NCBI GenBank assembly: GCA_030583745.1
Contig: CP129473.1
Location: 508,783 to 550,210, forward strand
DNA length: 41,428 nt
Source of the DNA: Minisyncoccota bacterium
GTDB taxonomy: Bacteria > Patescibacteriota > Minisyncoccia > Phycocordibacterales > BOKC01
Direction: 5' to 3'
Numbering within the stretch: the stretch's first letter is position 1; every line of letters begins with the position of its first letter. The notes under the pieces are model-generated. The model made no database searches. It was not told the origin of the DNA and saw nothing but the letters and a program-made list of their open reading frames with translations. Of this stretch, positions 1,969 through 37,674 are shown piece by piece. The position numbers were made by a program, and so were the translations under genes.

Positions 1969-2010
1969 GCGCGATCTCTAAAACCTTACTGTGGGATTAA
2001 CCAGACAAAG

Positions 2011-2866: not shown

Positions 2867-2969
2867 ATTATACATAAACATACCTTCCTGTCAATGGTTG
2901 CAGGTTCCCGAAGCATCCCTATACCCTATTGGCTATACCCTAGTTCTAGCAGGTGCAATTTATCTCCAC
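2867..2969 (-). promoter_or_regulatory. Junction element copy C (full form): Zn-ribbon gene 3' end, TAGGGT/CCAAT motif and a consensus promoter
   Basis: The minus strand reads TTGACA (2894-2889), a 16-nt spacer, then TATAAT (2872-2867). It is near-identical to copy A over 62 nt. Confidence 0.75.
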
Positions 2970-12574: not shown

Positions 12575-13069
12575 ATGATTTACAGGGGAACAATAACTGA
12601 AATGCTCCTTAAAGCCCTTCTTTACAAGACCCACTCTTTCAGAGAGGTTGAAGAAATGGTTAAAAAATATAAACCTAACAAAGAGGTTTCCCGAATTTCA
12701 ATTTTAAACACTCTTTATAGGTTGAAAAAGAGGGGTTTGGTCACCAAAACGGCTTCCGGCTGGTCGGCAAACAAGACCACTAAATCGGCACTTGCTAATA
12801 GAAGTAATTTTAATAAAAATTATTTTTCTAAAAACAAAAAAGATGGACAGATAAAAGAAATGATTGTTATGTATGATATTCCAGAAAATCTAAGAGCAAA
12901 ACGGGAGCGCTTACGAGAAGGATTAAAAGCTTTAGAGTTTAAACAAAAACAGCAAAGTGTTTGGATTGGACCAGCCCCATTACCAAAAGAGTTTATTAAA
13001 TATCTTGCTGAATTGAAAATAATAAAATTTATCAATTTTTTTCAAGTCAAAGAAAAGGATATTGTTTAA
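12575..13069 (+). CDS. Winged-helix protein with a C-terminal PaaX_C/Cas2-like ferredoxin-fold segment
   Basis: The N-terminal ILNTLYRLKKRGLV is wHTH-like. The C-terminal IVMYDIPENLRAKRERLREGLKALEFKQKQQSVWIGP follows the beta-alpha-beta pattern of Cas2 and the PaaX C-domain. Confidence 0.5.
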   Translation: MIYRGTITEMLLKALLYKTHSFREVEEMVKKYKPNKEVSRISILNTLYRLKKRGLVTKTASGWSANKTTKSALANRSNFNKNYFSKNKKDGQIKEMIVMYDIPENLRAKRERLREGLKALEFKQKQQSVWIGPAPLPKEFIKYLAELKIIKFINFFQVKEKDIV

Positions 13070-24341: not shown

Positions 24342-25868
24342 TTAGTTTAATTTGTAGGCCCAAAGAGAGTGGTCTTTTTTGTTAATGAAGAACAAGAATT
24401 CTTCATTGTCATCCATCAGTAGATTGGTTGCGTCTGCGTCTTCTAATAAAAACATTGGGTATACATTATTTTTTTCCAAATTTATTTCCCACAAAGCGTC
24501 TTCAAAAGAAACTAATCCTTGGAGCCAGCTGTCGGGGTAAATGGCTCCCGTCGGAACTGACTCCGGGGTGGCGCAATAAATTAAGTTTTCATTTTTCTTG
24601 CTCCAGACACATTTTTCGGTGAAAGTTTCAAGGAAATTCAAATCTGGTCGCTCTTTGTTTTCTAGGTCGAGAACTCTTAGGAAGATTTTGGCGTTATCAA
24701 ATCCGGAATAAAGAAATCGGTCTCCGTTGGGGCTTGCCAGAACCGACAAGCCGAAAACTTCACTAAGAATTTTTCTTAGACCACCGTTCGTGTTTAAAAC
24801 ATACGCACTACCCGGGAAGATAAAAGACGGTTTAGTTGTAAGAAGTATTTCATTTTCGGAAATCGCTTCAGCCGACCATTCTTTTGCTGGAGACTCAAAG
24901 ACTTGTTCTCTCTCGGTTCCGTTTGGGTTAGAAATAAAACCAACAGACCCCTCGCTGTCTTCCAAAATATAGAAAATTTTATTTGATTCGGGTAAATATG
25001 TAAGATTTTTTATGTCTGTCGGCAGGAAGGTCAAAGAGGTTTTGTAAAGACCTTCCCCCTCTTCTTCAACCACAATCGGCTTTTTGGCACCAGTTATTTC
25101 GTTTAATTTTTCTCTAGTCCTCTCATCGACAACTCCGTTTGACTCTTCTATGGTTGCATATTTTTCTTGAAATCTTTCAACCGCGGCTTTGGTGGCCGGA
25201 CCGAAAATTGAGGTTTCTAATCCAGGACTGCCACTACCGGAGACCGCGACTCTGGTATCTGGGTCTTGGTTTAAAACTCTTTGCAAGTTCAATACCGCCA
25301 CTCCAGTGCTCCCCTGTTGTAGTTCGGTTGTGAATTCGTAGCCGGAAATAATTCCGCCGATTTCAGACTCGGGACTTAGAATTTGCAAAGCGACACTCTC
25401 TATTGTTTCCCGGTCTTCTTTTAAAAATCTTAAAATGGCGGTGTCTGTGCCGGCCCAGACAGCTTCTTGGATTTTTGGCAAGGTGGTGTTGGAAATTCTA
25501 ATCAAATTAGCGGAATAAGAGCCTGTTTCCCAAATATGGCCGGTGGCGCGGTCTATAAATCTAACAAAAATTTCTCCATTTTGACTGAAAACATTAAATC
25601 CGGCGATTGGGTTTTGAGAAATTTTAGATAGTGGTGAGTTAAAAATTTGTTCTGTGGGGCTGAATTCATTTTCTCCAACCTCTTCCTGGGTCGGAGTAAC
25701 TGGTCTTAAAGTCGGCGTTTCGGAAGTTCGGCCAAAAGGAAAGAAGTCGCGGATGCTCAATCCCGAATTTTCTTCTCCCGGCGCTTGGCGAGTAGCAAGA
25801 ATAAAGAAAGTAAGCGCCAAAACGGCAACAACTATCAGGATAATTAAAATTACTTTCTTTTTTTTCAT
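24342..25868 (-). CDS. Exported protein with a peptidoglycan-binding (PG_binding_1-like) domain and a beta-propeller-like C-terminal half; last gene of the T4SS-like operon
   Basis: GSTGVAVLNLQRVLNQ...IFGPATKAAVERFQEKY matches the PG_binding_1 pattern. There is an N-terminal TM/signal anchor. The start is placed at MKKKKVILI (25868) rather than the ORF-track 25907. Confidence 0.7.
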   Translation of the reverse strand: MKKKKVILIILIVVAVLALTFFILATRQAPGEENSGLSIRDFFPFGRTSETPTLRPVTPTQEEVGENEFSPTEQIFNSPLSKISQNPIAGFNVFSQNGEIFVRFIDRATGHIWETGSYSANLIRISNTTLPKIQEAVWAGTDTAILRFLKEDRETIESVALQILSPESEIGGIISGYEFTTELQQGSTGVAVLNLQRVLNQDPDTRVAVSGSGSPGLETSIFGPATKAAVERFQEKYATIEESNGVVDERTREKLNEITGAKKPIVVEEEGEGLYKTSLTFLPTDIKNLTYLPESNKIFYILEDSEGSVGFISNPNGTEREQVFESPAKEWSAEAISENEILLTTKPSFIFPGSAYVLNTNGGLRKILSEVFGLSVLASPNGDRFLYSGFDNAKIFLRVLDLENKERPDLNFLETFTEKCVWSKKNENLIYCATPESVPTGAIYPDSWLQGLVSFEDALWEINLEKNNVYPMFLLEDADATNLLMDDNEEFLFFINKKDHSLWAYKLN

Positions 25869-25875
25869 ATTTATA

Positions 25876-26565
25876 TTAATCCGGAACGCGCTCACAGACA
25901 TAAGCAATGCATTTAGGTGGTCCGGCGTATATTGGCCATTGATTGTCTCTTATTTTATCCCAGCACTTCTTACTTGATTCAAACGTATCCTCAAACGGTC
26001 CGAAACTTGTCCTCTTTCCACCACAGTTTCTTGTTCCCGGAATTCGTGTGTCTATTCTAAATATCCTATAATTTCCCGGCGGGTCACCAGTGTCTTTTAA
26101 GACATCATTTACTCCACCCACAATTGGATCTTCTAATGGAGGTGGTGGTAGCAGCTCTTCCTCTTCTTGTACGCTTTCTGGTTTTGTTATGTTCAATTTG
26201 AGGGAAAGTAGGTCTGGATTAATGGTATAGAGGATAATCCAAGCGGCGATAGCCAAGAAAAGTCCGATTAGCGCCTTGCTGATTTTTTCTTTACCGTCTT
26301 CTTTACCAGAAAAAGAACCAGAGGTTATGTATTGTATCCCACCAATCATTATAACGAGAACCGCCAAAACGCCGGTAATTCCAATTGCCAAGGCAAAAGC
26401 CCCACTTAAATAATTAGCCAGAACAACCGGCTCATTGTTGGGTGTAACGCCAGGGATTGGCGCTAGTGGAACGTACCCGGTATCTTGCGCTGTGGCGAAT
26501 AAAGGCAGAGCGCTTAAAACAGAAAGAACGAGTATTAGAATTATCAGATTTTTATTTTTCTTCAT
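25876..26565 (-). CDS. T4SS pilin-like protein (VirB2/TrbC-type, PF18895-like) with an extra Cys-rich C-terminal domain
   Basis: It has a signal peptide and LAPIPGV. Two TM helices flank GGIQYITS...GKEKISKALIGLFLAIAAWIILYTINPDL. These are followed by a PPPP linker and a ~90-aa domain with 5 Cys. Confidence 0.7.
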   Translation of the reverse strand: MKKNKNLIILILVLSVLSALPLFATAQDTGYVPLAPIPGVTPNNEPVVLANYLSGAFALAIGITGVLAVLVIMIGGIQYITSGSFSGKEDGKEKISKALIGLFLAIAAWIILYTINPDLLSLKLNITKPESVQEEEELLPPPPLEDPIVGGVNDVLKDTGDPPGNYRIFRIDTRIPGTRNCGGKRTSFGPFEDTFESSKKCWDKIRDNQWPIYAGPPKCIAYVCERVPD

Positions 26566-26574
26566 ACTAAAAAA

Positions 26575-27576
26575 CTATTCGGTTAGATTTAAAATAATTT
26601 CTGATTGCCCAGTCTGCAGAAGTTTATTTTTATGTCTTACACTTAAAGAAATTTCAGCTTGGCCGGTAATTTGTCCTTCTTTTCGTAAAGTTAAAGAACT
26701 CCTGTTTCCGGCGGATTGCCCTGCTTGGCGCCAAGAATATTCCAAATCATTACTGTTCTTGAGCGATGCTGAAAAAAAATATGGCACAGCAGACAGAGTA
26801 ATTTCTCTATCTTTTAATTCAAAACCCAGAACCGCCCTGTTCAGCATAAGTCCGTATAGAGGACTGTCTTCATAAATTATAACCCGTGGGTTGGAGTTTA
26901 CGATCCTTGCGGATTTTTCAGCTCTGATTGAGCCGTCCGAATTTGAAACCTCGACCTTTATGTTTAAAGGTCTTGTTATCGGGCCGGTACTGATGGTGAT
27001 TTTATCTTTTCCTAATCCAGAATCTCTTTGCAATAAAGTGTTGTCTCTATACCATCGGAAAAATAAATTTTGAGGATTAATTCTTTGGCCACTACTGTTT
27101 AAAAATATGGGAAGAGCTGATATTGACACCTCACTTCTGTCGGTGAAAATTGCTCGACCTTTGTAAAACGGCGGGGTGTAGGTTTCGGCGTTCCAAATCA
27201 AATCAACTTCGGCCGATCTCATACTTACTTCCCTTCTGAACTCCTGTCCACTAAGAGTTGTTAATTCTAAGACAAGGCGGGTTAATTCTCCCAGCTGGCC
27301 TGATTCAAATTCAAATTCCGTTTCGCCGATACCACTTTTTGCCAATTCGCCGTTCAGGAACCATGAAATGTTAGCTCGCTTTAAGTCTGTGAGATTCATC
27401 TCGACGCTGGCGAGCACTGTTTCCAATGGCGCTGGATTGGCTGGTTTTAGATTCAAAACAAGAAACTCATCAAGAATCGGCATTTGGGCACTTAAAAGTG
27501 ATGGCGAAAATAAGAAAATAAGAAATGTAAACAAGAAATAAGTTTTTTTTACGGTTTCGACTGTTTCAAATTTCAT
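26575..27576 (-). CDS. Exported protein with three tandem Ig-like repeats (unknown function)
   Basis: It has an N-terminal signal/anchor. A periodic pattern recurs around ISWFLNGE, FRWYRDNT and YSWRQAGQ. Confidence 0.55.
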   Translation of the reverse strand: MKFETVETVKKTYFLFTFLIFLFSPSLLSAQMPILDEFLVLNLKPANPAPLETVLASVEMNLTDLKRANISWFLNGELAKSGIGETEFEFESGQLGELTRLVLELTTLSGQEFRREVSMRSAEVDLIWNAETYTPPFYKGRAIFTDRSEVSISALPIFLNSSGQRINPQNLFFRWYRDNTLLQRDSGLGKDKITISTGPITRPLNIKVEVSNSDGSIRAEKSARIVNSNPRVIIYEDSPLYGLMLNRAVLGFELKDREITLSAVPYFFSASLKNSNDLEYSWRQAGQSAGNRSSLTLRKEGQITGQAEISLSVRHKNKLLQTGQSEIILNLTE

Positions 27577-27589
27577 ATGTTAAATTTTA

Positions 27590-27988
27590 TCATAATTTGG
27601 CGATCGAGCTCATTCCAGACTTACTCTTTTTAGTTGTCCAAATTGTTATAGCAACCGAGCCGGTTATAGCTGGTAACATGTTTACAAGTGGGATCAGGGA
27701 TATGACAAGACCACTTCCCATCGCGGCGATTCTTTTTCCAGTCATTAATTTCACTCCCTTCATCATAAACCACAGGAAAAACACAATATAAGCCATTCCA
27801 CCTATGACAATGCTTATGATCTGGCCGATGACGGGAATTAAATTGATTAAAAAAATAATTAGATCAAAAAACAATGCGGTGCCAATCATGAGATAAATTG
27901 AGCCAAGCCCAATTTTCTGGCTCTCGTCTTCCGAGCCCGAAACTGCTGTTGGTTTTTTAAGATTTGGCTTTGGTGTTTTGTCGGGCAT
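27590..27988 (-). CDS. Small polytopic membrane protein (132 aa)
   Basis: It has three hydrophobic segments and is tightly packed after virB4 (2-nt spacer). Confidence 0.6.
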   Translation of the reverse strand: MPDKTPKPNLKKPTAVSGSEDESQKIGLGSIYLMIGTALFFDLIIFLINLIPVIGQIISIVIGGMAYIVFFLWFMMKGVKLMTGKRIAAMGSGLVISLIPLVNMLPAITGSVAITIWTTKKSKSGMSSIAKL

Positions 27989-27990
27989 TT

Positions 27991-29823
27991 TTATTTTTCA
28001 CTCTCCTTCTCTTCCAATTCTTGCTTGGCTTTTTTGATGGCCAGAATTTGCGATGGGTCGGAAGTGATAATTTGGTCTTCGGTGTAAGAGGCGATGATTT
28101 TTATAGCTACGTGCTTTAGTCCGGCAAAGAAAATTCCCTCTCCGACACCAGATTCCAAAAGCAAAAACTTTTCTTCGTCGGTTAGATTAAAAACCTTCTG
28201 GAGCTTCTCTATAACCGTCGGCGATTGTTTTAACAAAATTTGAATTGAAGAATTGGTGATAATCGGTAAACCGTAAGGTGACCTTAAGAAGTCATCAACG
28301 TCTTGAGTGATTGTTGAAAGACCAAGATAGTATTTTCGGCCTCTTTTGGCTAAGCTCAAAAGGAATGAAGCGGTATCTTCAGACTTCATCATCCACCACG
28401 CTTCGTCAATGACCAATAACCGTTTCTTCAGCTCTTTTCTGATAGCGTTCCAAATGTAGTGCATTACGATGTACATAGCCACCGGCTTGAGCTCATCCTC
28501 CATATCTCTTAAGGAGAAGACCACAAATTTATTGTTGATATCTATATTGGTCGGCTGATTTATAAAACCAGACCAAGTACCAACTGTGTATTTGGTCAGT
28601 CTTTGGGCCAAAGATTCTGCGCCACTCATTCCCTTTAAAACCATTTCAAAATCTGAAAGCAATGGCGCTTCTACGTTTGAAAAATTGGATTCCGGTGTGA
28701 TGTCTCTTAAGGCGTAAGTTTCTGTGATGGCGCGGTCGATGATTGCGTCTTCTTCCGGTGTTAGACCGCCGAGCATCAGACGGAACAAGCCGACTAAATT
28801 TATAATGTGTGAACGCAGAACGTCGGCATTTGATTCATCCTCGCCGGCTATTGGCAGGTCAAAGGGGTTTATGTGGTGCTCGGAAGTTAAAGAAATTTTG
28901 AAATAGCGCCCTCCGATAGCGTCGGCCATGTATTCATATTCCCTCTCCGGATCAATAACCATAACATCGGCATCAAACATTAAAGTTCTTAAGATTTCCA
29001 ATTTTGTTGCGTAACTTTTGCCGGAACCGGATTTGGCAAAAACAACCGAGTTATAATTTTCCAGAGAAAATCTGTCAAAAAGAACCAAGCTTGAGTTGTG
29101 CCGGTTTATTCCGTAAAGAATTCCTCTGTCAGACGTTAAGTCAAAGGAAATAAAAGGAAAAACACTGGAGAGAGGTGAAGAGTTTAATTTTGAATGGACT
29201 TCTAAAAGGTCTGTGCCGATTGGGACAACGCTTTTGAAACCTTGTTCTTGCTGGAAGAGCGCGGGTTTGACATATACCAGTTGGGCTTCCAAAACTGATT
29301 TTATTTCTGTTTCTATTTTGTCTAACTCCTTCTCATTATCTGCATAGATTGAAATGTATAGTCCGACATCAAAAATTTTTTCTTGGGCCTGCTGAAGTTG
29401 GTCTCGAAGATTTTCCAAGTCTTGGTAGGCAGTATCAAGCATTGGGTCTCTAACCATTCCCTTTTCCTCTCGGCCATGTATCTGGCTTTGAACTTCGGCG
29501 ACTTTTTTTTGAAATTGTTTGAGGATTCTTGCGGTGTCTATTGGGTGAACAAAAATTGAAACATCGTAAATTTTATCCAGGTTTATAATCGGTGAAAACC
29601 AACCTTCCGCTAGGTATCTCGGGTAAGAAATTACAAAATATGTTCTGGCGATTTTATTGCCGAGATTCAGTTCTCGAGGACTGACTTTTAGAGCGCTTGG
29701 CGCGATGACGTCTTTAAGCTCCAAGACGCTCGCCTGGTAAAGCTCTTGGGGCAATTTTAAGATCTCCTCATCCCCACCTCCTTTCTCTTTGTTTTTCTTT
29801 TTAAATATGCTTAAAATTCCCAT
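27991..29823 (-). CDS. virB4: VirB4/TrsE-type T4SS ATPase
   Basis: Walker A is FAKSGSGKSYATK and Walker B is RLLVIDEAWWMM. The N-terminal domain pattern IAPSALKVSPRELNLGNKIARTYFVISYPRYLAEGW is typical of Gram-positive-type VirB4. Confidence 0.9.
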   Translation of the reverse strand: MGILSIFKKKNKEKGGGDEEILKLPQELYQASVLELKDVIAPSALKVSPRELNLGNKIARTYFVISYPRYLAEGWFSPIINLDKIYDVSIFVHPIDTARILKQFQKKVAEVQSQIHGREEKGMVRDPMLDTAYQDLENLRDQLQQAQEKIFDVGLYISIYADNEKELDKIETEIKSVLEAQLVYVKPALFQQEQGFKSVVPIGTDLLEVHSKLNSSPLSSVFPFISFDLTSDRGILYGINRHNSSLVLFDRFSLENYNSVVFAKSGSGKSYATKLEILRTLMFDADVMVIDPEREYEYMADAIGGRYFKISLTSEHHINPFDLPIAGEDESNADVLRSHIINLVGLFRLMLGGLTPEEDAIIDRAITETYALRDITPESNFSNVEAPLLSDFEMVLKGMSGAESLAQRLTKYTVGTWSGFINQPTNIDINNKFVVFSLRDMEDELKPVAMYIVMHYIWNAIRKELKKRLLVIDEAWWMMKSEDTASFLLSLAKRGRKYYLGLSTITQDVDDFLRSPYGLPIITNSSIQILLKQSPTVIEKLQKVFNLTDEEKFLLLESGVGEGIFFAGLKHVAIKIIASYTEDQIITSDPSQILAIKKAKQELEEKESEK

Positions 29824-29825
29824 TT

Positions 29826-30476
29826 TTATTCTTCAAGCTTAATAGCTTTTTCAAGCTCCCCAGGATTGAAAGTTTTGTAAAAGAGTTCAACAACTTCCTC
29901 TGTCCTTAAAACTACGGTTCTCAAACCAAAACTTATAAGACCTTGTTCTAAAACTGAAATTCTCTGCTCTAATTGAGTTAAGTTTTCTTCAAAAACATCA
30001 CCCTCACTTTCTTTCTTGTCTACGTTTTTTTCTTTTCTTCGAAAGTTGGCTAAAGAAATTCCGCCTCCTTTACCCCTTTTAATTATTGATGGGGTGTAAG
30101 GTATTACTATGAAAAAATGTTTTGTCATTATATTGGTGTTTTCGGTGAAAGCTTTTATAAAACCAATATATTCTCTGACCTGAATTTTCATCAAATCGCT
30201 TTTTTGTGCCTTCTCTCTTTCTTCTAAGAGAGCAAGGTATGGTCTAATGTCGAGCCGTCTTGATTGCACTACAATCTGTACCGAGAAATCTAAAGAGTTC
30301 AGAAGGTTTTGAAACTGAAAAATTATTGCTTTTCTTTCCTCCTCGGATTTTAAGGCAAAGTTTGTGGAAGAAACCATCAAAATCGCTCTCAAACTCCCAT
30401 CTTTTAGGGTTATGATTCCGTTCCTTATTTCTTTTATTGGAACAAACTCTTGTGTTGCTTTAGCAGAAATTGCCAT
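29826..30476 (-). CDS. Hypothetical protein resembling a stand-alone VirB4 N-terminal (non-ATPase) domain
   Basis: The pattern TQEFVPIKEIRNGIITLKDGSLRAILMVSSTNFALKSEEE parallels the opening of conjugative VirB4/TrsE proteins. No P-loop is present. Confidence 0.4.
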   Translation of the reverse strand: MAISAKATQEFVPIKEIRNGIITLKDGSLRAILMVSSTNFALKSEEERKAIIFQFQNLLNSLDFSVQIVVQSRRLDIRPYLALLEEREKAQKSDLMKIQVREYIGFIKAFTENTNIMTKHFFIVIPYTPSIIKRGKGGGISLANFRRKEKNVDKKESEGDVFEENLTQLEQRISVLEQGLISFGLRTVVLRTEEVVELFYKTFNPGELEKAIKLEE

Positions 30477-30539
30477 TTTATTAAAAATTATATTTCAGTT
30501 TTTTAACTGAAAGACCGTATAAAACATTCTATCATTTTT

Positions 30540-30992
30540 TTACCCGATTTTTTCTGACACCTTGCTGTCTTTGTATCTCCTGATTTCTTCTCCCTGTTCT
30601 TTCACATCTAATTTCCAAGTTAAGTCTTTGAGTTTTGAGCCGGTCAGTCGTGGAACAAACTCATCCGGCATTTTTTCTGTTTGTTTCGCATCTTTTATTA
30701 CTATCTCTTCTTTTTCTTCTTTTCTCCAAATATAAAGTTTGCCGGAGAGCAAGTATTTAAAAGCTGCCTCAAGAATTTCAATGAATGGTTTGTTATTGAT
30801 TTTCCAAAATGCCAACGCTAGACCCAAAGCACCAATTGGTAGGATAAGTAAAAGAGCTAAAAAACGCGGCAAGACATTATATAGCACGATTATAATTCCA
30901 GCTGTTCCGGCAAGATAAATAAACTGCTTTAAAGTAAAAGGGCCGATAATTTTGTCCTCTACTTCTATAAATTGTGGGACTTGAAAACGCAT
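30540..30992 (-). CDS. PrgI/VirB3-like small membrane protein
   Basis: The N-terminal VPQFIEVEDKIIGPFTLKQFIY is followed by two TM helices, matching PrgI-family architecture. It lies upstream of virB4. Confidence 0.6.
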   Translation of the reverse strand: MRFQVPQFIEVEDKIIGPFTLKQFIYLAGTAGIIIVLYNVLPRFLALLLILPIGALGLALAFWKINNKPFIEILEAAFKYLLSGKLYIWRKEEKEEIVIKDAKQTEKMPDEFVPRLTGSKLKDLTWKLDVKEQGEEIRRYKDSKVSEKIG

Positions 30993-30995
30993 AAG

Positions 30996-31008
30996 CTAGG
31001 GTTTAGGG
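30996..31008 (+). repeat. Short TAGGGT-repeat motif (copy E), inverted partner of 31375-31388
   Basis: ctagggtttaggg is the reverse complement of ccctaaaccctag. Compare ccctaaaccctaa at 58-70 and ccctagaccctaaa at 31375-31388. Confidence 0.6.
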
Positions 31009-31048
31009 AAGAAAGAAGTTTGTTTAACATCTTCATTACTTCCACTAA

Positions 31049-31358
31049 TTAATTATACACTTTTTCGGTTTCGTTTTTGTTAGCCAGTTTCAGGTCTATA
31101 ACTAATAAAAGTTGAGTTTCTAATTCTGCCCCAGAACCAAAAGCAACTCTTACGAATTGAATATATTCTTGTCTTGATTTCCTACTATAACCTTCTGCAA
31201 GCTTCTGCAAGGTTAGACGGAATGGAAACTGCCGACCGACGCATTTGTGAAACCAGCCCGTATAATTCCTCTCTTGGAAATTGTTTGGTCAGGTTATAGA
31301 CAGACTTAACAAGTTCGAAATTTTTTTGCCAAACAATCAGGTCTTTATAAGATTGCAT
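31049..31358 (-). pseudogene. Frameshifted four-helix-bundle protein gene (23S rRNA intervening-sequence protein / Avd family)
   Basis: Hand translation gives MQSYKDLIVWQKNFELVKSVYNLTKQFPREELYGLVSQMRRSAVSIPSNLAE, then a 10-nt near-perfect tandem duplication (tgcagaagct/tgcagaaggt, about 31190-31209) shifts the frame. Removing it restores ...AEGYSRKSRQEYIQFVRVAFGSGAELETQLLLV... through to a stop at 31049. Confidence 0.8.
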
Positions 31359-31360
31359 TT

Positions 31361-31388
31361 CCCTATTGGCTATACCCTAGACCCTAAA
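31361..31388 (-). repeat. TAGGGT-repeat/CCAAT motif copy D, abutting the pseudogene start and the stop of the 326-aa gene
   Basis: ccctattggctataccctagaccctaaa matches 46-69 (ccctattggctataccctaaaccctaa) at all but one position. Confidence 0.8.
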
Positions 31389-31390
31389 TC

Positions 31391-32371
31391 CTATTCGAGA
31401 GGTTCACGATACGGGTCGGTGCTGTGATATCTTTCTTTTCTGGATTTTTCTATTTCTTCTTGGCTTTTTGCAAACGATAAATCATTGTTGCCGGTCGGCA
31501 AATTTTCCGGAGCAGAAGGTCTTGGCTCTGGTCGGAAATCAGTTTGTCTTGATTCGCCTGTAATCTGCCGTTCAAATGCTGTTTTCTGTCCGTAAGCTGG
31601 TGGATGTTCTATTTCTTCCAAAATTCGGCTTTTGTCCAAATTCTCTTCATCATCTTCTTCCTCGTACTGATTTTCTATTTCTACACCCCCGACATTTCCT
31701 TTCCAGTCAAAGTCGTTTGCGCCTAAATCTTTTGCCGGTTCAATCCCATATCTTTTTGTATTGTTTATGGGTGGATTTTCTTTTATTGCCGAGTTAAAGA
31801 CCGGCGCTTTATCATTTTTTATTTCCGGCACTTTAGACAATTCCTCTCTGATTCTTTTTAAAGAGTCGTTTGGTTCTGGTTTTTTTACTGCTGTCTGGGG
31901 CGGTATATATGTTTCTGGCTCTCTTCGTGCCACTCTTTCAGATCTTTCGTTTAGGCCGGCGGATAAATTTGGAGTGTAATTTTTCTCTTGCGGTTTCTGG
32001 TTTTCTTTTTCGCCGAGACCAGTTTCCGTCATTCCTTTTTCGTTTTCTTCAATCGCTTCTTCTATAGCTTCCAAAGTTGTTTCCACCGGACGAAAAATGT
32101 TTTTATAGACATCGGTTGAAATCAAAGATGCTTGGCCAAAACTAATACCTAATTGTTTTTGAATGTTACCACCGTAGTCGCTTAAATTTTCTAAACCCAA
32201 AAGCACAAAGTAGGTTTCGTTTTTTAGCGCTTCCAGTTGGTCTTCACTTAAGCCGTTGGCGGTGGCGATTGCTCGGAACTTACCCCTCAATTCAGGGTTA
32301 GCGATTGTTTGTTTAAGGTCGTCAGGTAAGTTTTGATAATTTTCTTTTATTAATTGCTTTAAATCATCCAT
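31391..32371 (-). CDS. Hypothetical soluble protein (326 aa): helical N-terminal domain with an acidic/Pro-rich tail
   Basis: It is an ORF with operon context only. No TM segment and no recognised motif are present. Confidence 0.55.
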   Translation of the reverse strand: MDDLKQLIKENYQNLPDDLKQTIANPELRGKFRAIATANGLSEDQLEALKNETYFVLLGLENLSDYGGNIQKQLGISFGQASLISTDVYKNIFRPVETTLEAIEEAIEENEKGMTETGLGEKENQKPQEKNYTPNLSAGLNERSERVARREPETYIPPQTAVKKPEPNDSLKRIREELSKVPEIKNDKAPVFNSAIKENPPINNTKRYGIEPAKDLGANDFDWKGNVGGVEIENQYEEEDDEENLDKSRILEEIEHPPAYGQKTAFERQITGESRQTDFRPEPRPSAPENLPTGNNDLSFAKSQEEIEKSRKERYHSTDPYREPLE

Positions 32372-32398
32372 TTTATTTTTTATTTTTAATCAACAAAT

Positions 32399-34366
32399 TT
32401 ATTTTTTGTCTTTGTCTGACCCTTTGTCTTTCCCCCCTTTTTCCTCATCTAAGATATCTCTTATAACGCTTTCAATATTTTGGCCAGGAGCTTTACCTGT
32501 CCGAATAGCTTTAGCTGCCGCTATTCTTTGTTCTTTGTTTGAAAATGAGAAGGTTTGTCTTAAAACCCCTCTCGGTCTCTCAAGTTCTTCGGCTCTTTGC
32601 TCCATTACAGCTTTTTTCACTTGCGCTCCTTTGATTTGGGCGTTTGTATTCCTTTGTTTGTATCTTTCTCTAAGTTTTTTCATTTCCTGTAAATATTTCT
32701 TTCTAGCTTCAATTATCTGTCGTTTTGCTTCTTCTTCCGCTTCTTCTTGGGTTCCCGCTCCGACAGCTACTGTATCTATTTTTTCCTGCTCTATTCTGTC
32801 TAATTCTGCTTGGTATGTGCGGCCGATTCTTCCTGCCTTACCTTTGTCTGGCGATGCCTCAACCGTGGCCATTCTCTGGCTTCTCTGCTCCACTACTTCT
32901 TGTTCAGCCTTTTCCCCAGCCTTTTTTGCTTTTTCTACTTCAATTTTTGCAAAAGCATCCCTTCGTTTATCTCTTGCTTTTTGAAAGTCCGCGCCACTTG
33001 GGCCTTTACCACCAAACTTGCTCTTTGAAAGTCCCGTAAGCGGGGCTCTTAACATAGAACCAACAGCTGTTTGTCCGAATCTCGTACCACCGAGCGCTCT
33101 GTCAGCCCCTGCAGCCAATCTGCCGACGGTTTGTCTTGCCGGAGCTGACCCCATTCTTTTGGCGCTGTTGCTTGCCCATTTCACCGCTTTTTCTCCACCC
33201 TGAACCCCGATTAATTTCGCGGCGACGATTGAGAATGCTGCCATTCCTATAACCACTATAAAATTGAAGATTATCGCCATTTTGTCTTTCAAAAGACCCT
33301 CCACGAACCCTTCCTTATTAGAACCACTTAATCCGTCTGGTATTATGCGGGTGAGAGATTCTCCCAAATTTGTTCCACCGTTTGTCAATCCATTTAGTAC
33401 TAGTATTGTTACCCAGATCAAAGCTAGAAAAATTGGAGCAAAGATCGCTTGAGAGATAAGTGCATCCCACCATTTTTTTGACCAATCGTCCTTCGGTAAA
33501 GCCATAGCGGCAAAAGCTAGAGGTGAAAGAATCATCAGGAATATTAAGACCACAAACCTTATTGTTAAAAGAATTGCTGCGGCGGCAAAAACAAAAGCTA
33601 CCACCATAAAAAGGAAAAAACTTAAAATTGCTACCAGAAGAATGTTTAAGGGGCCGTTGACAGTGCTTAGTAATTTTTCTGCTCCCGCTAAATTAAAAGC
33701 ACTTTCAAGTCCGAGTTGTCTCATAAATGCTCCGGAGAGGCCTAAATCTTTTCCGGTGCTTGAGACCCCCACCTCTTCTATTTGATTATAGAAACTTGTT
33801 GCCACAATATTTGAGGCATCTATAAGAGCTTTTGTGAAAAACAAACTGAAATTTATTAGTAGAGCGATGATTATGACATGAACCAAGAGTTTTTTGGTGG
33901 TAGCGGTATCCATCCGCAAAATGGTCATTATGGCGATGTATAGGATGATGAAGATAAAGAAAATATTGGCGAGGTCTCGGAAAGTCCCCCAGGCATCTGT
34001 TATGACCGGCAGGTCTCTAACCCTTTGAGCCATTTCCACGATCGTATAATCAAGAGTGTAGTTTAACAATAGTCCAGCCAAGCCAAGAACCCAACCGGCA
34101 AGCATGATTATAAATTTACCAATCCAAGAAGCTATGCCTTCTGCAAAACCTTCAGCGAATTCTTTAGGTTTTTCAGCTACCATTTGACCTCCTTGGATAA
34201 TTCCACGAATAGCTATATCTGCGCCGGGAAGCGGCACAATTTGAGCTTCAGAAGATTTTGTTTCAATAAACGGTAACGGAAAAACAGCCGAAAAAAATAA
34301 GAAAACTATTAGAGTTGAGAGAAACAGAAATTTTTGTTTTTTGTTAATGCCCGTTAAGTTTTTCAT
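32399..34366 (-). CDS. Polytopic membrane protein, VirB6/TrbL-like, with a long Lys/Glu/Ala-rich C-terminal tail
   Basis: It has a signal/anchor and at least 6 hydrophobic helices. It shares an ATGA overlap with the upstream gene. Position and architecture fit the VirB6 role, but no strict sequence motif was verified. Confidence 0.5.
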   Translation of the reverse strand: MKNLTGINKKQKFLFLSTLIVFLFFSAVFPLPFIETKSSEAQIVPLPGADIAIRGIIQGGQMVAEKPKEFAEGFAEGIASWIGKFIIMLAGWVLGLAGLLLNYTLDYTIVEMAQRVRDLPVITDAWGTFRDLANIFFIFIILYIAIMTILRMDTATTKKLLVHVIIIALLINFSLFFTKALIDASNIVATSFYNQIEEVGVSSTGKDLGLSGAFMRQLGLESAFNLAGAEKLLSTVNGPLNILLVAILSFFLFMVVAFVFAAAAILLTIRFVVLIFLMILSPLAFAAMALPKDDWSKKWWDALISQAIFAPIFLALIWVTILVLNGLTNGGTNLGESLTRIIPDGLSGSNKEGFVEGLLKDKMAIIFNFIVVIGMAAFSIVAAKLIGVQGGEKAVKWASNSAKRMGSAPARQTVGRLAAGADRALGGTRFGQTAVGSMLRAPLTGLSKSKFGGKGPSGADFQKARDKRRDAFAKIEVEKAKKAGEKAEQEVVEQRSQRMATVEASPDKGKAGRIGRTYQAELDRIEQEKIDTVAVGAGTQEEAEEEAKRQIIEARKKYLQEMKKLRERYKQRNTNAQIKGAQVKKAVMEQRAEELERPRGVLRQTFSFSNKEQRIAAAKAIRTGKAPGQNIESVIRDILDEEKGGKDKGSDKDKK

Positions 34367-35625
34367 AGCGGCAGGGTTGATGTGGCGACACTCATTGACC
34401 GACCAGATTCTTGCTCAAGATCGTTAAACGCGGATACCTGGTAAGTATATTCTGTATTGGGAAACAAGCCGACATCTGTAAATACCGTCTCTGTTGTAGT
34501 TACGACAGAGACGTCATTCCTCCATACCCGATAGTTTATTGATCCGATTTGTCCGACTGCTGGATCCCAACCAAGACGAACTGTTGTCCATGTCGTGTCG
34601 AGAACTTTCAAATTTTCAGGAGTTAAGGGAGCGTATTGGCGGGTCGGTACTTTTTCGTCAGCTCTGGCCTGCGCTGCCCCCTTTAATCCGCCGCTACTTA
34701 AAGCGCCGGTGATGAGTTGGCTCGAAAGAGATTGTAGAATACGGTCAAAACTGTCAGCTGTTTCAAGTTCCCGCAGTTCCGTTCCAAGGGCGGTATCTAA
34801 ACTGTTGGCAATTGTTTTGCCTGGCGTAATTATATTCCCGATATCATCGGTCAAAGAGAAAAATCCGTCGCCCCAGTTTAATTTCATAAGCTCTGTGTTT
34901 TGGGCGCCTGCGATTCTGGAATTAAGCTCGGCTTCAGTTGCCGAATAAGCTCCGTAAGGATTGTTTTGCGGTTGGATAATCTGAAACCAACCATCCCATC
35001 CGCCGACTGAAAAACCACCGGGCTTTGTAAAATTAGCGTAACTTTCCGCATTTTGGAGCGCGCCGGAGAGGGTGCAGGACCACCGCGATCTACTCGACTC
35101 AAATTGGTTATTATATTTGAAATTCAAGAGGCCTCTTAAATCAAAGCCGAACTCGGGAGTTTTGAACGGACTGCAGAGGAAACTCTCTAAGCCGGCGCTG
35201 TTTATAAACCCACCAGCAACAGAATCGGCAACGCCTAAAAAGAAATTATTTGGATCGGTAACAAATGCCGACCCACCAGCAAATCCAGAATCCACCCACT
35301 TGATTATATTGCTTGTTACCATGCCTAAAATTCCGCTTGAAATCTGTCGGGCGATGAAATCGTGGCTTGTCGGAGCGAGTGAAGCGGCCACTCCCGGACT
35401 TAGGGGATAAATTCCTGGTACTTGGCCGACTTCTTTTGCAGTGTTGGCGCCAGTGGCAATCGCAGTGTTCATTCCGTAGGTGTTTAGAAAAGTTCCTTGT
35501 AGAGCGTCAATTGGAACGTGTGGTTGAGCTTTGGCTTGGATTGGGGCGAGCGTGCAAAACATCGCCAAAAACATCGCCGAGCAGAATAAGAAGTTTTTTT
35601 CAGCTTTGGTTTTCAGGAAATTCAT
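34363..35625 (-). CDS. Exported protein with a C-terminal fibronectin type III domain
   Basis: It has a signal peptide ending in AKAQP. The C-terminal LKVLDTTWTTVRLGWDP...YRVWRND...NTEYTYQVSAFN shows the classic FN3 pattern. Confidence 0.65.
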   Translation of the reverse strand: MNFLKTKAEKNFLFCSAMFLAMFCTLAPIQAKAQPHVPIDALQGTFLNTYGMNTAIATGANTAKEVGQVPGIYPLSPGVAASLAPTSHDFIARQISSGILGMVTSNIIKWVDSGFAGGSAFVTDPNNFFLGVADSVAGGFINSAGLESFLCSPFKTPEFGFDLRGLLNFKYNNQFESSRSRWSCTLSGALQNAESYANFTKPGGFSVGGWDGWFQIIQPQNNPYGAYSATEAELNSRIAGAQNTELMKLNWGDGFFSLTDDIGNIITPGKTIANSLDTALGTELRELETADSFDRILQSLSSQLITGALSSGGLKGAAQARADEKVPTRQYAPLTPENLKVLDTTWTTVRLGWDPAVGQIGSINYRVWRNDVSVVTTTETVFTDVGLFPNTEYTYQVSAFNDLEQESGRSMSVATSTLPL

Positions 35626-35644
35626 TTAATAAAAATTTATAAAT

Positions 35645-36493
35645 TTAAATATTCAGAACTTTTTCAATCACGTAGCCCGGGTCGTTTGGAGAGAAATAAA
35701 CATCGTTTTTCTTCAAATATTCGCTGATTTTTGAAAGTGCCTCGCGTAAATCAGAACCATATCCGGCGTAATTACTGATAATAAATATTCCATCAACCGG
35801 GTCTGACAAAACAGTTTCAAAATTCTGAATGCTGATTCTGACTCCATTTAAGGCATTTATCATTTCAAGATGCGAGGAAGCGATTTCCGCAGGTGTTTCA
35901 AGTTTCAGATATTCGGAGATTAAATTGTCGTAATTTTTTATTACCAGCTCAAGTTGTTTTAATTCAGCCGGACTGTTTAACTGCATAGCTTTGGCCAAAA
36001 CGTCGTTTGGGTTAGGAACATTTGCGGAAAAAGAGTATTTTTGGGAGATTTCGCCAATCTTGTTTCCGTAAAGACGCAGATCTTCTTTGCTGTTTCTAGC
36101 GCTGATTTTCAGATCCGAAATTCTGTATTCCGTCGCTGATTTTCTTAAAATTTCCTGATCAATGGGGTTTTTGTCAAATATTTTTTTTATTACTTCTTCC
36201 TCATCTATCCTTTCTTTGTTTTTCTGGGCTTGGAAGTATTCTTCTAAGACTCCTTTTGCCAACTCATCCGCATAGGCGCCGCTGACTCTGGGAATAATCA
36301 TTTGCCGTCTTTCCAAGATTTCTTTTTCCCACATAGCCAAAGAATTGTTTGGGGACTCGGTTCTTATAATCGGCTGGTCGGACTTATAAACTAGTTCGCG
36401 CTCGGCGCCCAATTCAACGCTCGCTGCCGTGACAATTATCACTAGGGAAAAAACTATCGCTCCGATTATGGTTATGATTGATTTTCTAGGCAT
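35645..36493 (-). CDS. Bitopic membrane protein (N-terminal TM + ~250-aa helical ectodomain); first gene of the T4SS-like operon
   Basis: The TM segment is IITIIGAIVFSLVIIVTAASV. The topology is compatible with a VirB8/PrgL-like scaffold, but this is speculative. Confidence 0.5.
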   Translation of the reverse strand: MPRKSIITIIGAIVFSLVIIVTAASVELGAERELVYKSDQPIIRTESPNNSLAMWEKEILERRQMIIPRVSGAYADELAKGVLEEYFQAQKNKERIDEEEVIKKIFDKNPIDQEILRKSATEYRISDLKISARNSKEDLRLYGNKIGEISQKYSFSANVPNPNDVLAKAMQLNSPAELKQLELVIKNYDNLISEYLKLETPAEIASSHLEMINALNGVRISIQNFETVLSDPVDGIFIISNYAGYGSDLREALSKISEYLKKNDVYFSPNDPGYVIEKVLNI

Positions 36494-36588
36494 AAAACTT
36501 AAAAGTATTATATCAAATAAAAGCCGGAATTCATTTTGTTTTTCAGCTGTGTGGATTATTTTCTCTACCTTGTTGTATAATAGGCGAA

Positions 36589-37674
36589 ATGTTTTTTAAA
36601 GAAAAAAAATTGAAGATTTACAAATACTTTTTGGCCGTTTTTATTTTCTTCCTTTTAATTTTTGGCGGGTTTGGTTTGGGCTTTTCGCAAAAAGATTTTA
36701 AACCGGGAATCGTTTTCTTGTCGCAGAAACTGGGTTGGTTTAACCTTGGCTTGGCAAACGCTTCAAATCACTTTTCTTTTTTGCTTTTGCAGGCCGAAAA
36801 CTGCCGGGAAATAGTTTCGGCGTACGGAGAGTTGACTGATAGCAGGATTAGCGTTTGTGTTTCAGCTTTTAGAAGTTGGGAAAAATGGGGCTTTGAAAGA
36901 AACGATGATTTTCACCCGCTTTGGCTGACTTGGCTTTATTGGAAAGAAAACCCCGACAAGCAGGCACCTCTGACTTTTGATGGTTGGGCAAGGGGGGCTT
37001 CCGGCATGCTTAATTCTTGGGCAAAATTCATGAGTGAATATGAGGGGCCGTTAGATGATATTCACAACCCTTGCCACGACATCACTCTTCACTACTCTTC
37101 CAGTGTCATTAATACTCCGCTACAAAATCCGGATACGGGATGGAGAAACTATTCCAGTTATTACGAATCATGTGAAGAAAAATTCAACAAATTTTCGGAA
37201 TATGAATATGACGATCCGGAGCACCCGCTCTATCTTTTTTGGGAACAATGGAACACAGACCAATCTTGGGAGACGGATGATGGACAACAGAATCTTATTC
37301 CGCCCCCAATTTTCAGCCAATGGGAAATTGGCGCTGGACTTTTAGCCGAGAGCGAATGGAATTTTACGAGGCAGCCGTTTTTTAGTAGTTTACCTGGCTT
37401 TGGTGGGAGGGTCGCAAGCGTTATGGACTGCACCTGCGACGAGACTAAGCTTTTTTATTTAACACCCGTTCCCGGAAGCTGGTCTGGGCCGTATTTGGTA
37501 AGAGAGTCAACTGACTTGCACCCGGTTTACGGTCCTGTTTCTTCAGGCCGGTGGGTTTTGGGGAATGTTAATTCCGGCGGATCTTGCATGATGACTTCCA
37601 ATACCGGTTGCTATCCAATCCCGACAATGTTTAAAGTTCAGCCTCGTCCGGCCGGAGTCGGCGCTAGCCAATAG
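36589..37674 (+). CDS. Membrane-anchored Trp-rich, Cys-containing protein, divergent from the T4SS-like operon
   Basis: It has an N-terminal TM and many W residues (WLTWLYWKENPDK, WEQWNTDQSWETDD). A C-terminal Cys cluster is present (DCTCDE...GGSCMMTSNTGC). A TATAAT at 36576-36581 ends 7 nt before the ATG. Confidence 0.6.
   Translation: MFFKEKKLKIYKYFLAVFIFFLLIFGGFGLGFSQKDFKPGIVFLSQKLGWFNLGLANASNHFSFLLLQAENCREIVSAYGELTDSRISVCVSAFRSWEKWGFERNDDFHPLWLTWLYWKENPDKQAPLTFDGWARGASGMLNSWAKFMSEYEGPLDDIHNPCHDITLHYSSSVINTPLQNPDTGWRNYSSYYESCEEKFNKFSEYEYDDPEHPLYLFWEQWNTDQSWETDDGQQNLIPPPIFSQWEIGAGLLAESEWNFTRQPFFSSLPGFGGRVASVMDCTCDETKLFYLTPVPGSWSGPYLVRESTDLHPVYGPVSSGRWVLGNVNSGGSCMMTSNTGCYPIPTMFKVQPRPAGVGASQ

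What the first reader, a model, noticed from the sequence alone, without database searches (positions are those of the whole stretch)
24342..37674. Minimal type IV secretion-like operon lacking the DNA-processing and outer parts of known T4SSs
**Operon structure.** Twelve minus-strand genes run 36493 to 24342. They are tightly packed, with ATGA overlaps at 34363-34366 and 2-20 nt spacers elsewhere. One divergent gene sits on the plus strand.

**Recognisable parts.**
- A PF18895-style VirB2/TrbC pilin (25876-26565)
- A PrgI/VirB3-like protein (30540-30992)
- A VirB4 ATPase (27991-29823)
- A VirB6/TrbL-like polytopic protein (32399-34366)
- A PG_binding_1 protein (24342-25868)
- An FN3 surface protein (34363-35625)

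**What is missing or unknown.** The window holds no VirD4 coupling protein, relaxase, VirB11, VirB7/9/10 or recognisable VirB1 lytic enzyme. Half of the genes are exported or membrane proteins with no recognisable family: the three-Ig-repeat protein, the 132-aa membrane protein, the 326-aa acidic protein, the 282-aa bitopic protein and the 361-aa Trp-rich protein.

**Interpretation.** An ATPase, channel and pilin core without DNA-transfer machinery fits a protein-delivery, DNA-uptake or cell-cell attachment apparatus better than a conjugation system. That would matter for an epibiotic or parasitic reduced-genome cell. Function and composition appear uncharacterised.
Basis: partly seen in the sequence, partly recalled or inferred. 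Interest (0 to 1): 0.8.

Follow-up and report, generated by a model that had tools for sequence, protein, structure and literature searches.

The report
Known Patescibacteria type IV secretion operon
This is the chromosomal, non-conjugative type IV secretion system already described across ultrasmall Patescibacteria (CPR) bacteria, here in its Paceibacteria layout next to the replication origin, so it is a real but published kind of system whose transported cargo is still unknown.

Summary
The operon is real: 11 intact, tightly packed minus-strand genes (36493 to 24342) plus one small frameshifted gene. HMMs support the VirB4 ATPase, PrgI/VirB3, T4SS pilin, PG_binding_1 and FN3 calls. The 216-aa protein is a TrsD-like detached VirB4 N-domain. 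The VirB6 call rests only on topology and weak TrbL hits in 3 of 31 orthologues.

The locus lies between yidC-rnpA-dnaA-dnaN and ksgA-uvrD. That order is kept in about 48 fully sampled Paceibacteria genomes, whose VirB4 is 76-92% identical. No integrase, relaxase, coupling protein or att-like repeats were found in the window, so it is not an ICE.

All of this is published. Quinonero-Coronel et al. 2025 describe a Patescibacteria VirB4 clade nested in MPF-FATA, with TrsD, PrgI, VirB6 and VirB2-like pilins, no relaxase, and a dnaA/rnpA/ksgA neighbourhood. Wang et al. 2023 showed the Saccharibacteria counterpart is essential for epibiotic growth.

Structure tests on two accessory proteins found no VirB8- or VirB5-like fold. 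The divergent Trp-rich gene is not a conserved part.

The parts
24342..25868 (-). g1: membrane-anchored envelope protein (508 aa from the ATG at 25868). It has a PG_binding_1 insertion and a conserved C-terminal, possibly beta-propeller-like, domain.
   Evidence: One N-terminal hydrophobic helix. PG_binding_1 E 1e-5, but seen in only 3 of 31 orthologues. PD40 hit weak, 1 of 31; TolB E 0.13. Present in 48 of 48 full related loci.
25876..26565 (-). g2: VirB2-like T4SS pilin with a signal peptide, a two-helix hydrophobic hairpin and a ~110-aa Cys-containing C-terminal extension.
   Evidence: PF18895 T4SS_pilin 5.4e-10, 39.6 bits above the 26.6 cutoff. Single copy in the window, and the C-terminal extension is hypervariable among orthologues. 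Present in 45 of 48 full loci.
26575..27576 (-). g3: exported protein with three Ig-like repeats, universal in the Paceibacteria operon, role unknown.
   Evidence: N-terminal hydrophobic segment. Present in 48 of 48 loci at 96% coverage. A W-x-x-N/D-G motif recurs three times. Only weak Ig-like hits among orthologues: BiPBP_C 6 of 31, Ig_3, PKD_3; PDB profile hits above E 0.02.
27590..27988 (-). g4: small polytopic membrane protein (132 aa), poorly conserved.
   Evidence: At least 2 hydrophobic helices. No family. Detected in 15 of 48 loci. No significant similarity to the pilin.
27991..29823 (-). g5: VirB4-type ATPase that lacks the usual N-terminal domain.
   Evidence: NCBIfam CD1110-family VirB4 2.5e-115, 386.5 bits above the 325 cutoff, matching profile positions 181-733 of 752. 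Pfam P-loop_TraG 1e-27. PDB 4AG5 1.8e-42 and TrwK 1.7e-7. Walker A 'SGSGKS' and Walker B 'LLVIDEAW' are visible in the translation. 76-92% identical across the 80 best of 546 or more species genomes.
29826..30476 (-). g6: TrsD-like protein, a detached VirB4 N-terminal domain, probably translationally coupled to g5 (2-nt spacer).
   Evidence: Matches the N-terminal parts of VirB4 models (Mbov_0397 positions 102-233, 4.2e-11; CD1110 positions 2-118) and TrsD (4.2e-6). A separate ~212-aa ORF in 79 of 80 loci.
30540..30992 (-). g7: PrgI/VirB3-like small membrane protein.
   Evidence: Pfam PrgI 3.1e-9, 37.7 bits above the 27 cutoff; TcpE 0.002. Two adjacent hydrophobic helices. Present in 48 of 48 loci.
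31049..31358 (-). Disrupted 23S_rRNA_IVP (four-helix-bundle, Avd-like) gene lying inside the operon; not a T4SS part.
   Evidence: The joined translation hits PF05635 at 2.3e-34. The frame is broken by a 10-bp tandem duplication at about 31195-31214.
31391..32371 (-). g8: acidic, probably cytoplasmic protein (326 aa) in which only the N-terminal ~100 aa is conserved.
   Evidence: No hydrophobic helix, 19.9% D+E. No family. Found in 21 of 48 loci at 31% coverage.
32399..34366 (-). g9: probable extended VirB6-like polytopic channel protein with a long charged C-terminal tail.
   Evidence: At least 6 hydrophobic helices within residues 13-382. The window protein has no Pfam or NCBIfam hit, but 3 of 31 orthologues hit TrbL/VirB6, best 2.6e-4. 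Present in 47 of 48 loci.
34363..35625 (-). g10: exported protein with a conserved Cys-containing core (about aa 90-328) of unknown fold and a C-terminal FN3 module; start/stop overlap with g9.
   Evidence: fn3 9.9e-8. AF2 is confident only for the FN3 module. Among family members the C-terminal module varies: fn3, F5/8-type-C, Ig-like, PKD, Big_2. The family is very large, with 5837 50%-identity clusters. ATGA overlap confirmed.
35645..36493 (-). g11: first gene of the operon; bitopic membrane protein with an extracytoplasmic helical-bundle domain.
   Evidence: One N-terminal hydrophobic helix. In the AF2 model, residues 120-281 have pLDDT 80-93 and are all helical. No PDB fold match below E 0.3. 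Found in 25 of 48 loci.
36494..36588 (.). 95-bp divergent intergenic region with -10-like elements for both transcription units.
   Evidence: TGATATAAT ends 13 nt before the g11 ATG, and TATAAT lies 8 nt before the g12 ATG. These are consensus matches only.
36589..37674 (+). g12: divergent Trp- and Cys-rich exported protein (361 aa); a lineage-specific neighbour, not a conserved system part.
   Evidence: 4.4% Trp, 8 Cys, one N-terminal hydrophobic helix. No family. Detected only in L001, the closest relative.

Best explanation

**Shown by homology.**
- The energising and membrane core derives from monoderm (MPF-FATA-type) conjugation machinery.
- The VirB4 ATPase is split into a TrsD-like N-domain protein (g6) and the ATPase body (g5).
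- There is a PrgI/VirB3-like membrane partner (g7).
- There is a VirB2-like pilin (g2), which ordinary Gram-positive T4SSs lack.

**Inferred.**
- g9 is probably an extended VirB6-like channel protein.
- VirB4/TrsD hexamers dock on PrgI and VirB6 in the membrane. They drive extraction and polymerisation of the Sec-exported pilin into a short pilus or conduit.
- The conserved exported proteins g1, g3, g10 and g11 form or anchor the cell-wall-spanning and host-contact part.
- The variable C-terminal modules of g10 and of the pilin face the host cell.
- By analogy with the Southlakia system, which is essential for epibiotic growth, the machine mediates contact-dependent exchange with a host cell. 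Protein export or uptake of host material is more likely than conjugation.

I put the identity at about 0.9 and any specific cargo at no more than 0.4.
For: **Component homology.** VirB4, TrsD-like, PrgI and pilin HMM hits are above curated cutoffs or strongly significant. TrbL hits occur in 3 of 31 g9 orthologues.

**Closest relatives outside the phylum.** The nearest non-CPR VirB4 homologues are in Firmicutes and Actinobacteria plasmids at 35% identity or less, annotated as CD1110 family. The best solved structure is a Thermoanaerobacter VirB4.

**Distribution.** At least 546 species-level genomes carry a relative of this VirB4. The 80 best are 76-92% identical, and those whose records name a lineage are all Patescibacteria MAGs, mostly Paceibacteria/Parcubacteria.

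**Synteny.** The order UvrD-KsgA-[g11..g1]-YidC-RnpA-DnaA-DnaN is kept across about 48 full loci.

**No mobile-element signs.** No integrase, relaxase or T4CP among the window ORFs scanned. No att-like flanking repeats. GC content of the operon is close to that of its flanks.

**Literature.** PMC12102498 reports exactly this repertoire, the absence of relaxase and the dnaA/dnaN/rnpA/ksgA neighbourhood for Paceibacteria. PMC10633639 shows the Saccharibacteria T4SS, including its pilins, is essential for epibiotic growth and lacks recognisable coupling protein and relaxase. PMC12857230 reviews it.
Against: - No experiment exists for any Paceibacteria system, so essentiality and cargo are extrapolated from a different class (Saccharimonadia).
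- The VirB6 assignment is weak for this protein.
- No VirB8-like or VirB1-like component was found in the operon. g11 is a helical bundle, not NTF2-like.
- I did not build a VirB4 tree, so placement inside the published Patescibacteria clade is inferred from nearest neighbours.
- The rest of the roughly 0.69-Mb source contig could not be searched for a T4CP or relaxase.
Confidence: 0.85

Rival explanations
1. It is an ordinary or decaying conjugative element (ICE or integrated plasmid) whose relaxase, coupling protein and oriT lie just outside the window.
For: The VirB4, TrsD and PrgI parts are homologous to Firmicutes conjugation genes. A T4CP could lie elsewhere in the genome, since the 2025 survey finds many distant T4CP homologues in Patescibacteria.
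Against: The operon sits between housekeeping genes at the origin region. The same gene order recurs in about 48 fully sampled species-level genomes, with VirB4 76-92% identical. There is no integrase and no att-like repeat, and the only tRNA is 19 kb away. Composition does not differ from the flanks. Only 109 relaxases were found in 3,035 Patescibacteria genomes, 15 of them near virB4.
Confidence: 0.03
2. It is a DNA-import machine, analogous to the archaeal Ced system, that feeds nucleotides or DNA from the host to a cell lacking nucleotide synthesis.
For: VirB4 shows weak similarity to CedB, 5.8e-9. Recombination genes (ruvB, ruvC, polA) and a PilB-type ATPase lie in the same window. In class ABY1 the T4SS co-localises with comF, recG and radA.
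Against: The CedB score is 35 bits against a cutoff of 700, so this is not a CedB equivalog. In Southlakia a comEC deletion abolished competence but not viability, so T4SS essentiality is not explained by ComEC-dependent DNA uptake. No DNA-binding component is recognisable in the operon.
Confidence: 0.1
3. It no longer transports anything: the VirB4, VirB6 and pilin core only assembles an adhesive pilus or attachment organelle that holds the epibiont on its host.
For: A pilin gene is present where Gram-positive T4SSs have none. The pilin C-terminus is hypervariable and g10 carries swappable binding-type modules, as expected of host-recognition surfaces. No coupling protein lies in the operon.
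Against: Type IV pili already provide adhesion in Patescibacteria, and a PilB gene is in this window. Retention of an extended VirB6-like channel protein suggests a translocation channel. No direct data exist either way.
Confidence: 0.15

Closest known systems
Patescibacteria-clade T4SS (Quinonero-Coronel et al. 2025, Microb Genom, PMC12102498), Paceibacteria arrangement
   Same: MPF-FATA-like VirB4 with an adjacent TrsD homologue, PrgI/VirB3, a VirB6-like protein and a VirB2-like pilin near virB4. No relaxase or T4CP nearby. Chromosomal position beside dnaA, dnaN, rnpA and ksgA.
   Different: Nothing substantive. This window has a single pilin gene rather than an array, and no recognisable VirB1 homologue in the operon, although the paper reports VirB1 association with virB4 in Paceibacteria. 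The accessory genes g1, g3, g10 and g11 are left unnamed in that study.
Southlakia epibionticum ML1 T4SS, SEML1_0006-0019 (Wang et al. 2023, Cell, PMC10633639)
   Same: Gram-positive-like subunit composition plus predicted pilins, with no recognisable coupling protein or relaxase in the cluster. Proposed role is in DNA or protein delivery at the epibiont-host interface.
   Different: It belongs to a different class (Saccharimonadia). It has an array of six divergent pilins, and essential peptidase and lysozyme homologues lie downstream of virB4. Here there is one pilin with a variable C-terminal domain and no hydrolase in the operon. Essentiality is shown there and not here.
Monoderm conjugative T4SSs of the MPF-FATA class (pGO1 Trs, pCF10 Prg, C. 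difficile CTn2/CD1110-type ICEs)
   Same: VirB4 of the CD1110 family, a TrsD-like protein (a pGO1-subclass feature), a PrgI-type VirB3 and no outer-membrane core complex.
   Different: Those systems have a relaxase, a T4CP, VirB8-like proteins, a VirB1-type hydrolase and surface adhesins but no pilin, and they sit on mobile elements. This locus has a pilin, none of the DNA-processing parts in view, and a fixed chromosomal position.
T4CP-less effector or toxin exporters (Bordetella Ptl, Brucella VirB)
   Same: T4SSs that work without a coupling protein, on substrates first exported by Sec.
   Different: These are diderm MPF-T systems with VirB7/9/10 and VirB11, and are only distantly related in VirB4 sequence (TrwK-type match 1.7e-7).

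Membership tests
Patescibacteria-clade T4SS | VirB4 ATPase of monoderm (MPF-FATA) type | tested here: met
   NCBIfam CD1110 family 386.5 bits above the 325 cutoff. Best PDB match 4AG5 at 1.8e-42. Best plasmid homologues are in Firmicutes and Actinobacteria.
Patescibacteria-clade T4SS | VirB4 falls inside the monophyletic Patescibacteria clade | tested here: inconclusive
   No tree was built. The 80 closest of at least 546 relatives are MAGs and those named are Patescibacteria, mostly Paceibacteria, at 76-92% identity. Non-CPR homologues are 35% identical or less.
Patescibacteria-clade T4SS | Separate TrsD-like protein encoded next to virB4 | tested here: met
   g6 matches the N-terminal segments of VirB4 models and TrsD. 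It is 2 nt upstream of g5 and conserved in 79 of 80 loci.
Patescibacteria-clade T4SS | PrgI/VirB3 homologue near virB4 | tested here: met
   Pfam PrgI 37.7 bits above the 27 cutoff.
Patescibacteria-clade T4SS | VirB2-like pilin near virB4 | tested here: met
   PF18895 39.6 bits above the 26.6 cutoff.
Patescibacteria-clade T4SS | VirB6-like polytopic protein | tested here: inconclusive
   No hit for the window protein. 3 of 31 orthologues hit TrbL at 2.6e-4. Topology is compatible.
Patescibacteria-clade T4SS | No relaxase and no coupling protein beside virB4; chromosomal position near dnaA/dnaN/rnpA/ksgA | tested here: met
   Pfam scans of the long window ORFs and synteny in related genomes.
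Patescibacteria-clade T4SS | Required for epibiotic growth | not testable with these tools
   Known only for Southlakia epibionticum.
Conjugative T4SS / ICE | Relaxase, VirD4-type coupling protein, oriT, and integrase with att repeats | tested here: not met
   None among the long ORFs of the 41-kb window that were scanned. No flanking repeats. The rest of the genome was not searchable.
Archaeal Ced DNA-import system | CedB-type ATPase at equivalog level | tested here: not met
   CedB model 35.1 bits against a cutoff of 700.
VirB8 / PrgL / TcpC (NTF2-like bitopic T4SS subunit) | Bitopic protein with an NTF2-like alpha+beta extracytoplasmic domain | tested here: not met
   g11 is the only bitopic candidate that was modelled. 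It comes out as an all-helical bundle with pLDDT 80-93 over residues 120-281, with no PDB match below E 0.3.
VirB1-type cell-wall hydrolase | Lytic transglycosylase, CHAP or M23 catalytic domain encoded in the operon | tested here: not met
   Only a non-catalytic PG_binding_1 domain in g1. An M23/LysM gene lies outside the operon at 40665 and onward.
DUF4141 (protein encoded beside traJ in Bacteroides conjugative transposons) / VirB5-like minor pilin | Homology of the conserved core of g10 to DUF4141 | tested here: not met
   Full-length family members hit DUF4141 in 2 of 31 and 4 of 87 cases. None of 58 did when only the conserved core was scanned. The AF2 model of the core has low confidence.

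The most novel reading that the evidence does not exclude
The conserved but unnamed Paceibacteria accessory set forms a Patescibacteria-specific wall-spanning and host-contact module. The set is g1 (anchored, propeller-like), g3 (three Ig-like repeats), g10 (Cys-containing core with swappable FN3, discoidin, Ig or PKD modules) and g11 (helical bundle). On this reading it replaces VirB8, VirB1 and the adhesins of Gram-positive T4SSs. The hypervariable C-terminal domain of the single pilin, together with the g10 module, would set host specificity for a machine that takes material from the host rather than delivering DNA.
Probability: 0.25. Interest if true: 0.55.

Novelty: already known. Interest (0 to 1): 0.25.

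Why it matters
The system class matters. It is nearly universal in a radiation that holds a large share of bacterial diversity. It is the first T4SS shown to be essential for its owner's growth, and its cargo is unknown. This particular locus adds only another example in the published Paceibacteria layout.

The modest added value here is threefold:
- A per-gene conservation map of the Paceibacteria operon. The core is g1, g2, g3, g5, g6, g7, g9 and g10; g4, g8 and g11 vary; g12 is not part of it.
- Negative structural tests for VirB8-like and VirB5/DUF4141-like assignments.
- The observation that the pilin C-terminus and the g10 C-terminal module are the variable, probably host-facing, parts.

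Tried and rejected
1. **g10 as a VirB5-like or Bacteroides DUF4141-type subunit.** The idea came from recurrent DUF4141 hits and from its position overlapping the VirB6-like gene. I rejected it because no hit remained when only the conserved core was scanned. The AF2 core model was also unreliable, with mean pLDDT 55; the fold search returned only FN3 matches, and a PDB profile search gave nothing.
2. **g11 as VirB8-like.** Rejected: the model is a helical bundle with no significant fold match.
3. **g4 as a second pilin.** No similarity to the pilin, either by BLASTP or by a pilin-hairpin HMM run over all window ORFs.
4. **PDB profile searches for g9, g3 and g1.** Nothing significant.
5. **ICE boundaries.** Only short chance repeats, one distant tRNA-Lys and no Rfam feature other than that tRNA.
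6. **Walking outside the window.** On the right side this reached only a 10-kb contig that adds a LysM/M23 gene. On the left side the Fic gene is found only on contigs under 2 kb.
7. **VirD4 elsewhere in the genome.** I could not search for it, because no suitable query or whole-genome access was available.

Full report
**Observation.** The window carries a tightly packed minus-strand operon from 36493 to 24342. It has 11 intact ORFs. A twelfth small gene (31358..31049) belongs to the 23S_rRNA_IVP four-helix-bundle family and is broken by a 10-bp tandem duplication. The ATGA overlap at 34363-34366 is real. Spacers are 2-27 nt, apart from one of 63 nt and the stretch that holds the broken gene. 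A divergent gene lies at 36589-37674.

**Family calls.**
- Pfam supports T4SS_pilin (39.6 bits), PrgI (37.7 bits), a VirB4-type P-loop (P-loop_TraG 1e-27), PG_binding_1 and fn3.
- NCBIfam places the 610-aa ATPase in the CD1110 VirB4 family above its cutoff, but only from profile position 181 onward.
- The upstream 216-aa protein matches the missing N-terminal part of VirB4 models, and TrsD. VirB4 is therefore split, as in pGO1-type systems.
- The best solved relative is the Thermoanaerobacter VirB4 (4AG5, 1.8e-42), far ahead of R388 TrwK.
- The best plasmid homologues are in Firmicutes and Actinobacteria at 35% identity or less.
- The 655-aa polytopic protein has no HMM hit of its own. Three of 31 orthologues hit TrbL/VirB6, and its hydropathy fits an extended VirB6. 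That call is plausible but weak.

**Context.** The operon is flanked on one side by jag, yidC, rnpA, dnaA, dnaN and ruvC, and on the other by ksgA and a UvrD/PcrA helicase. The rest of the window is housekeeping:
- polA, tsaE, a PilB-type ATPase, ruvB, a YebC-family regulator, a class A PBP, tyrS, fpg and a SpoU methylase.

No integrase, relaxase, VirD4, VirB11 or VirB8/9/10 was found. No att-like repeats flank the operon. The only tRNA is 19 kb away, and operon GC matches the flanks.

**Relatives.** A genome-collection scan with VirB4 found at least 546 species-level genomes carrying a relative. The 80 best are 76-92% identical. All are MAGs, and those whose records name a lineage are Paceibacteria/Parcubacteria or otherwise Patescibacteria. 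In the 48 loci with full 10-kb flanks, the order UvrD-KsgA-[g11 g10 g9 (g8) g7 g6 g5 (g4) g3 g2 g1]-YidC-RnpA-DnaA-DnaN is kept.
- Present in 44-48 of 48 loci: g1, g2, g3, g5, g6, g7, g9 and g10.
- Detected in 15-25 of 48: g4, g8 and g11.
- Detected only in the closest relative: the divergent Trp-rich gene.

This is a vertically inherited chromosomal system, not a mobile element. The window's own g11 protein is recorded on a 691,769-bp contig, which fits a small CPR genome.

**Comparison with the literature.** This is a published system.
- Quinonero-Coronel et al. 2025 (PMC12102498) surveyed 3,035 Patescibacteria genomes. VirB4 was present in 2,417, and most sequences form a monophyletic clade nested in MPF-FATA.
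- They found TrsD, PrgI/VirB3, VirB6 and VirB2-like pilins near virB4, and almost no VirB8 or VirB1.
- They found relaxases in only 103 genomes, and T4CP homologues mostly far from virB4.
- In Paceibacteria and Microgenomatia the neighbourhood is rich in dnaA, dnaN, rnpA, ksgA and rpmH.
- Wang et al. 2023 (PMC10633639) showed by Tn-seq that the Southlakia T4SS cluster, pilins included, is essential for epibiotic growth. They noted the lack of recognisable coupling protein and relaxase.
- McLean et al. 2020 had already pointed to the conserved locus, and a 2025 FEMS review summarises it.

Lack of VirB7/9/10 is simply the monoderm condition.

**Accessory proteins.** I tried to add information on the unnamed genes.
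- **g10.** The conserved core is about residues 90-328, with conserved Cys and Trp. Its C-terminal module varies among family members: FN3 here, and elsewhere F5/8-type-C, Ig-like, PKD, Big_2 or PG_binding_1. The family has 5,837 50%-identity clusters. AF2 with a 38-sequence alignment was confident only for the FN3 module. Sporadic DUF4141 hits disappeared when only the conserved core was scanned, so I dropped a link to the Bacteroides DUF4141 protein or to VirB5.
- **g11.** It models as a membrane-anchored helical bundle (pLDDT 80-93 over residues 120-281) with no significant fold match. It is not VirB8-like.
- **g3.** It shows three repeats, with only weak Ig-like hits among orthologues.
- **g1.** The PG_binding_1 domain is an insertion found in 3 of 31 orthologues. 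The conserved part is at best weakly TolB/PD40-like.
- **Pilin.** It is single-copy in the window, and its C-terminal extension is hypervariable among orthologues.

**Mechanism.** Homology shows a VirB4/TrsD ATPase, a PrgI/VirB3-like partner and a VirB2-like pilin, with a probable VirB6-like channel protein. The following is inferred. The ATPase complex at the membrane extracts and polymerises the Sec-exported pilin. The conserved exported proteins span or anchor to the wall. The variable pilin C-terminus and the g10 module contact the host. Function is extrapolated from Saccharibacteria: contact-dependent exchange needed for growth on a host, and not conjugation. Cargo and direction of transport are unknown.

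**Rivals.** DNA import, adhesion only, and a conjugative element are listed with their evidence. The conjugative-element reading is effectively excluded by synteny.

**Verdict.** The finding is an instance of an already described system. Interest is low to moderate; the open questions (cargo, roles of the accessory genes) belong to the whole class rather than to this locus.

Noticed in passing
window 31049-31358 (-), duplication at about 31195-31214: A 23S_rRNA_IVP / Avd-like four-helix-bundle gene sits inside the T4SS operon. It is frameshifted by a perfect 10-bp tandem duplication (CTTGCAGAAG twice). Removing one copy restores the usual '...SNLAEGYSRKS...' reading. This could be a pseudogene, a slippage switch or an assembly error.
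   Followed up: partly
window 40665-41428 (+), cut by the window end; L081 125-1102: A LysM-LysM-Peptidase_M23 cell-wall hydrolase gene (325 aa in L081) lies just beyond uvrD, two genes from the operon. M23/LysM proteins are among the VirB1-like candidates discussed for Patescibacteria, but it may equally be a general division hydrolase.
   Followed up: partly
window 25876-26565 (-) and orthologues in L001-L080: The VirB2-like pilin carries a C-terminal extension of 100 aa or more, often Cys-rich. It differs completely in sequence and length between orthologues (proteins of 112-411 aa), whereas the hairpin is conserved.
   Followed up: partly
window 36589-37674 (+): An exported protein rich in Trp (4.4%) and Cys (8 residues), with no family, inserted between the operon and ksgA. 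It was detected only in the closest relative (L001, 57% identity). It could be a lineage-specific effector or surface protein.
   Followed up: partly
window 209-1354 (-) and 1-3000: A Fic/DOC-family protein lies in a segment of higher GC (0.44-0.48, against about 0.37-0.40 nearby). The identical 381-aa protein is recorded on nine contigs under 2 kb; the three shown come from three different sequencing runs. This may be a mobile or recently acquired gene. The adjacent 300-aa ORF (1918-2820) has no family.
   Followed up: no
window 9278-10993 (+): A PilB/GspE-type T2SSE ATPase with an MshEN domain (type IV pilus extension motor) lies 13 kb from the T4SS operon. No other pilus genes were recognised next to it.
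   Followed up: no
window 12575-13069 (+): A 164-aa protein with a PaaX central Cas2-like domain (5.4e-15) and a weak CRISPR_Cas2 hit. No CRISPR-like repeat array was noticed in the window, but no dedicated repeat scan covered this region.
   Followed up: no
window 36494-36588: The 95-bp divergent intergenic region holds an extended -10 (TGATATAAT) ending 13 nt before the g11 start, and a TATAAT 8 nt before the g12 start. Most genes in the operon lack a Shine-Dalgarno-like sequence. This suggests very short leaders.
   Followed up: no
Most orthologues are about 410-430 aa and lack it.
   Followed up: yes
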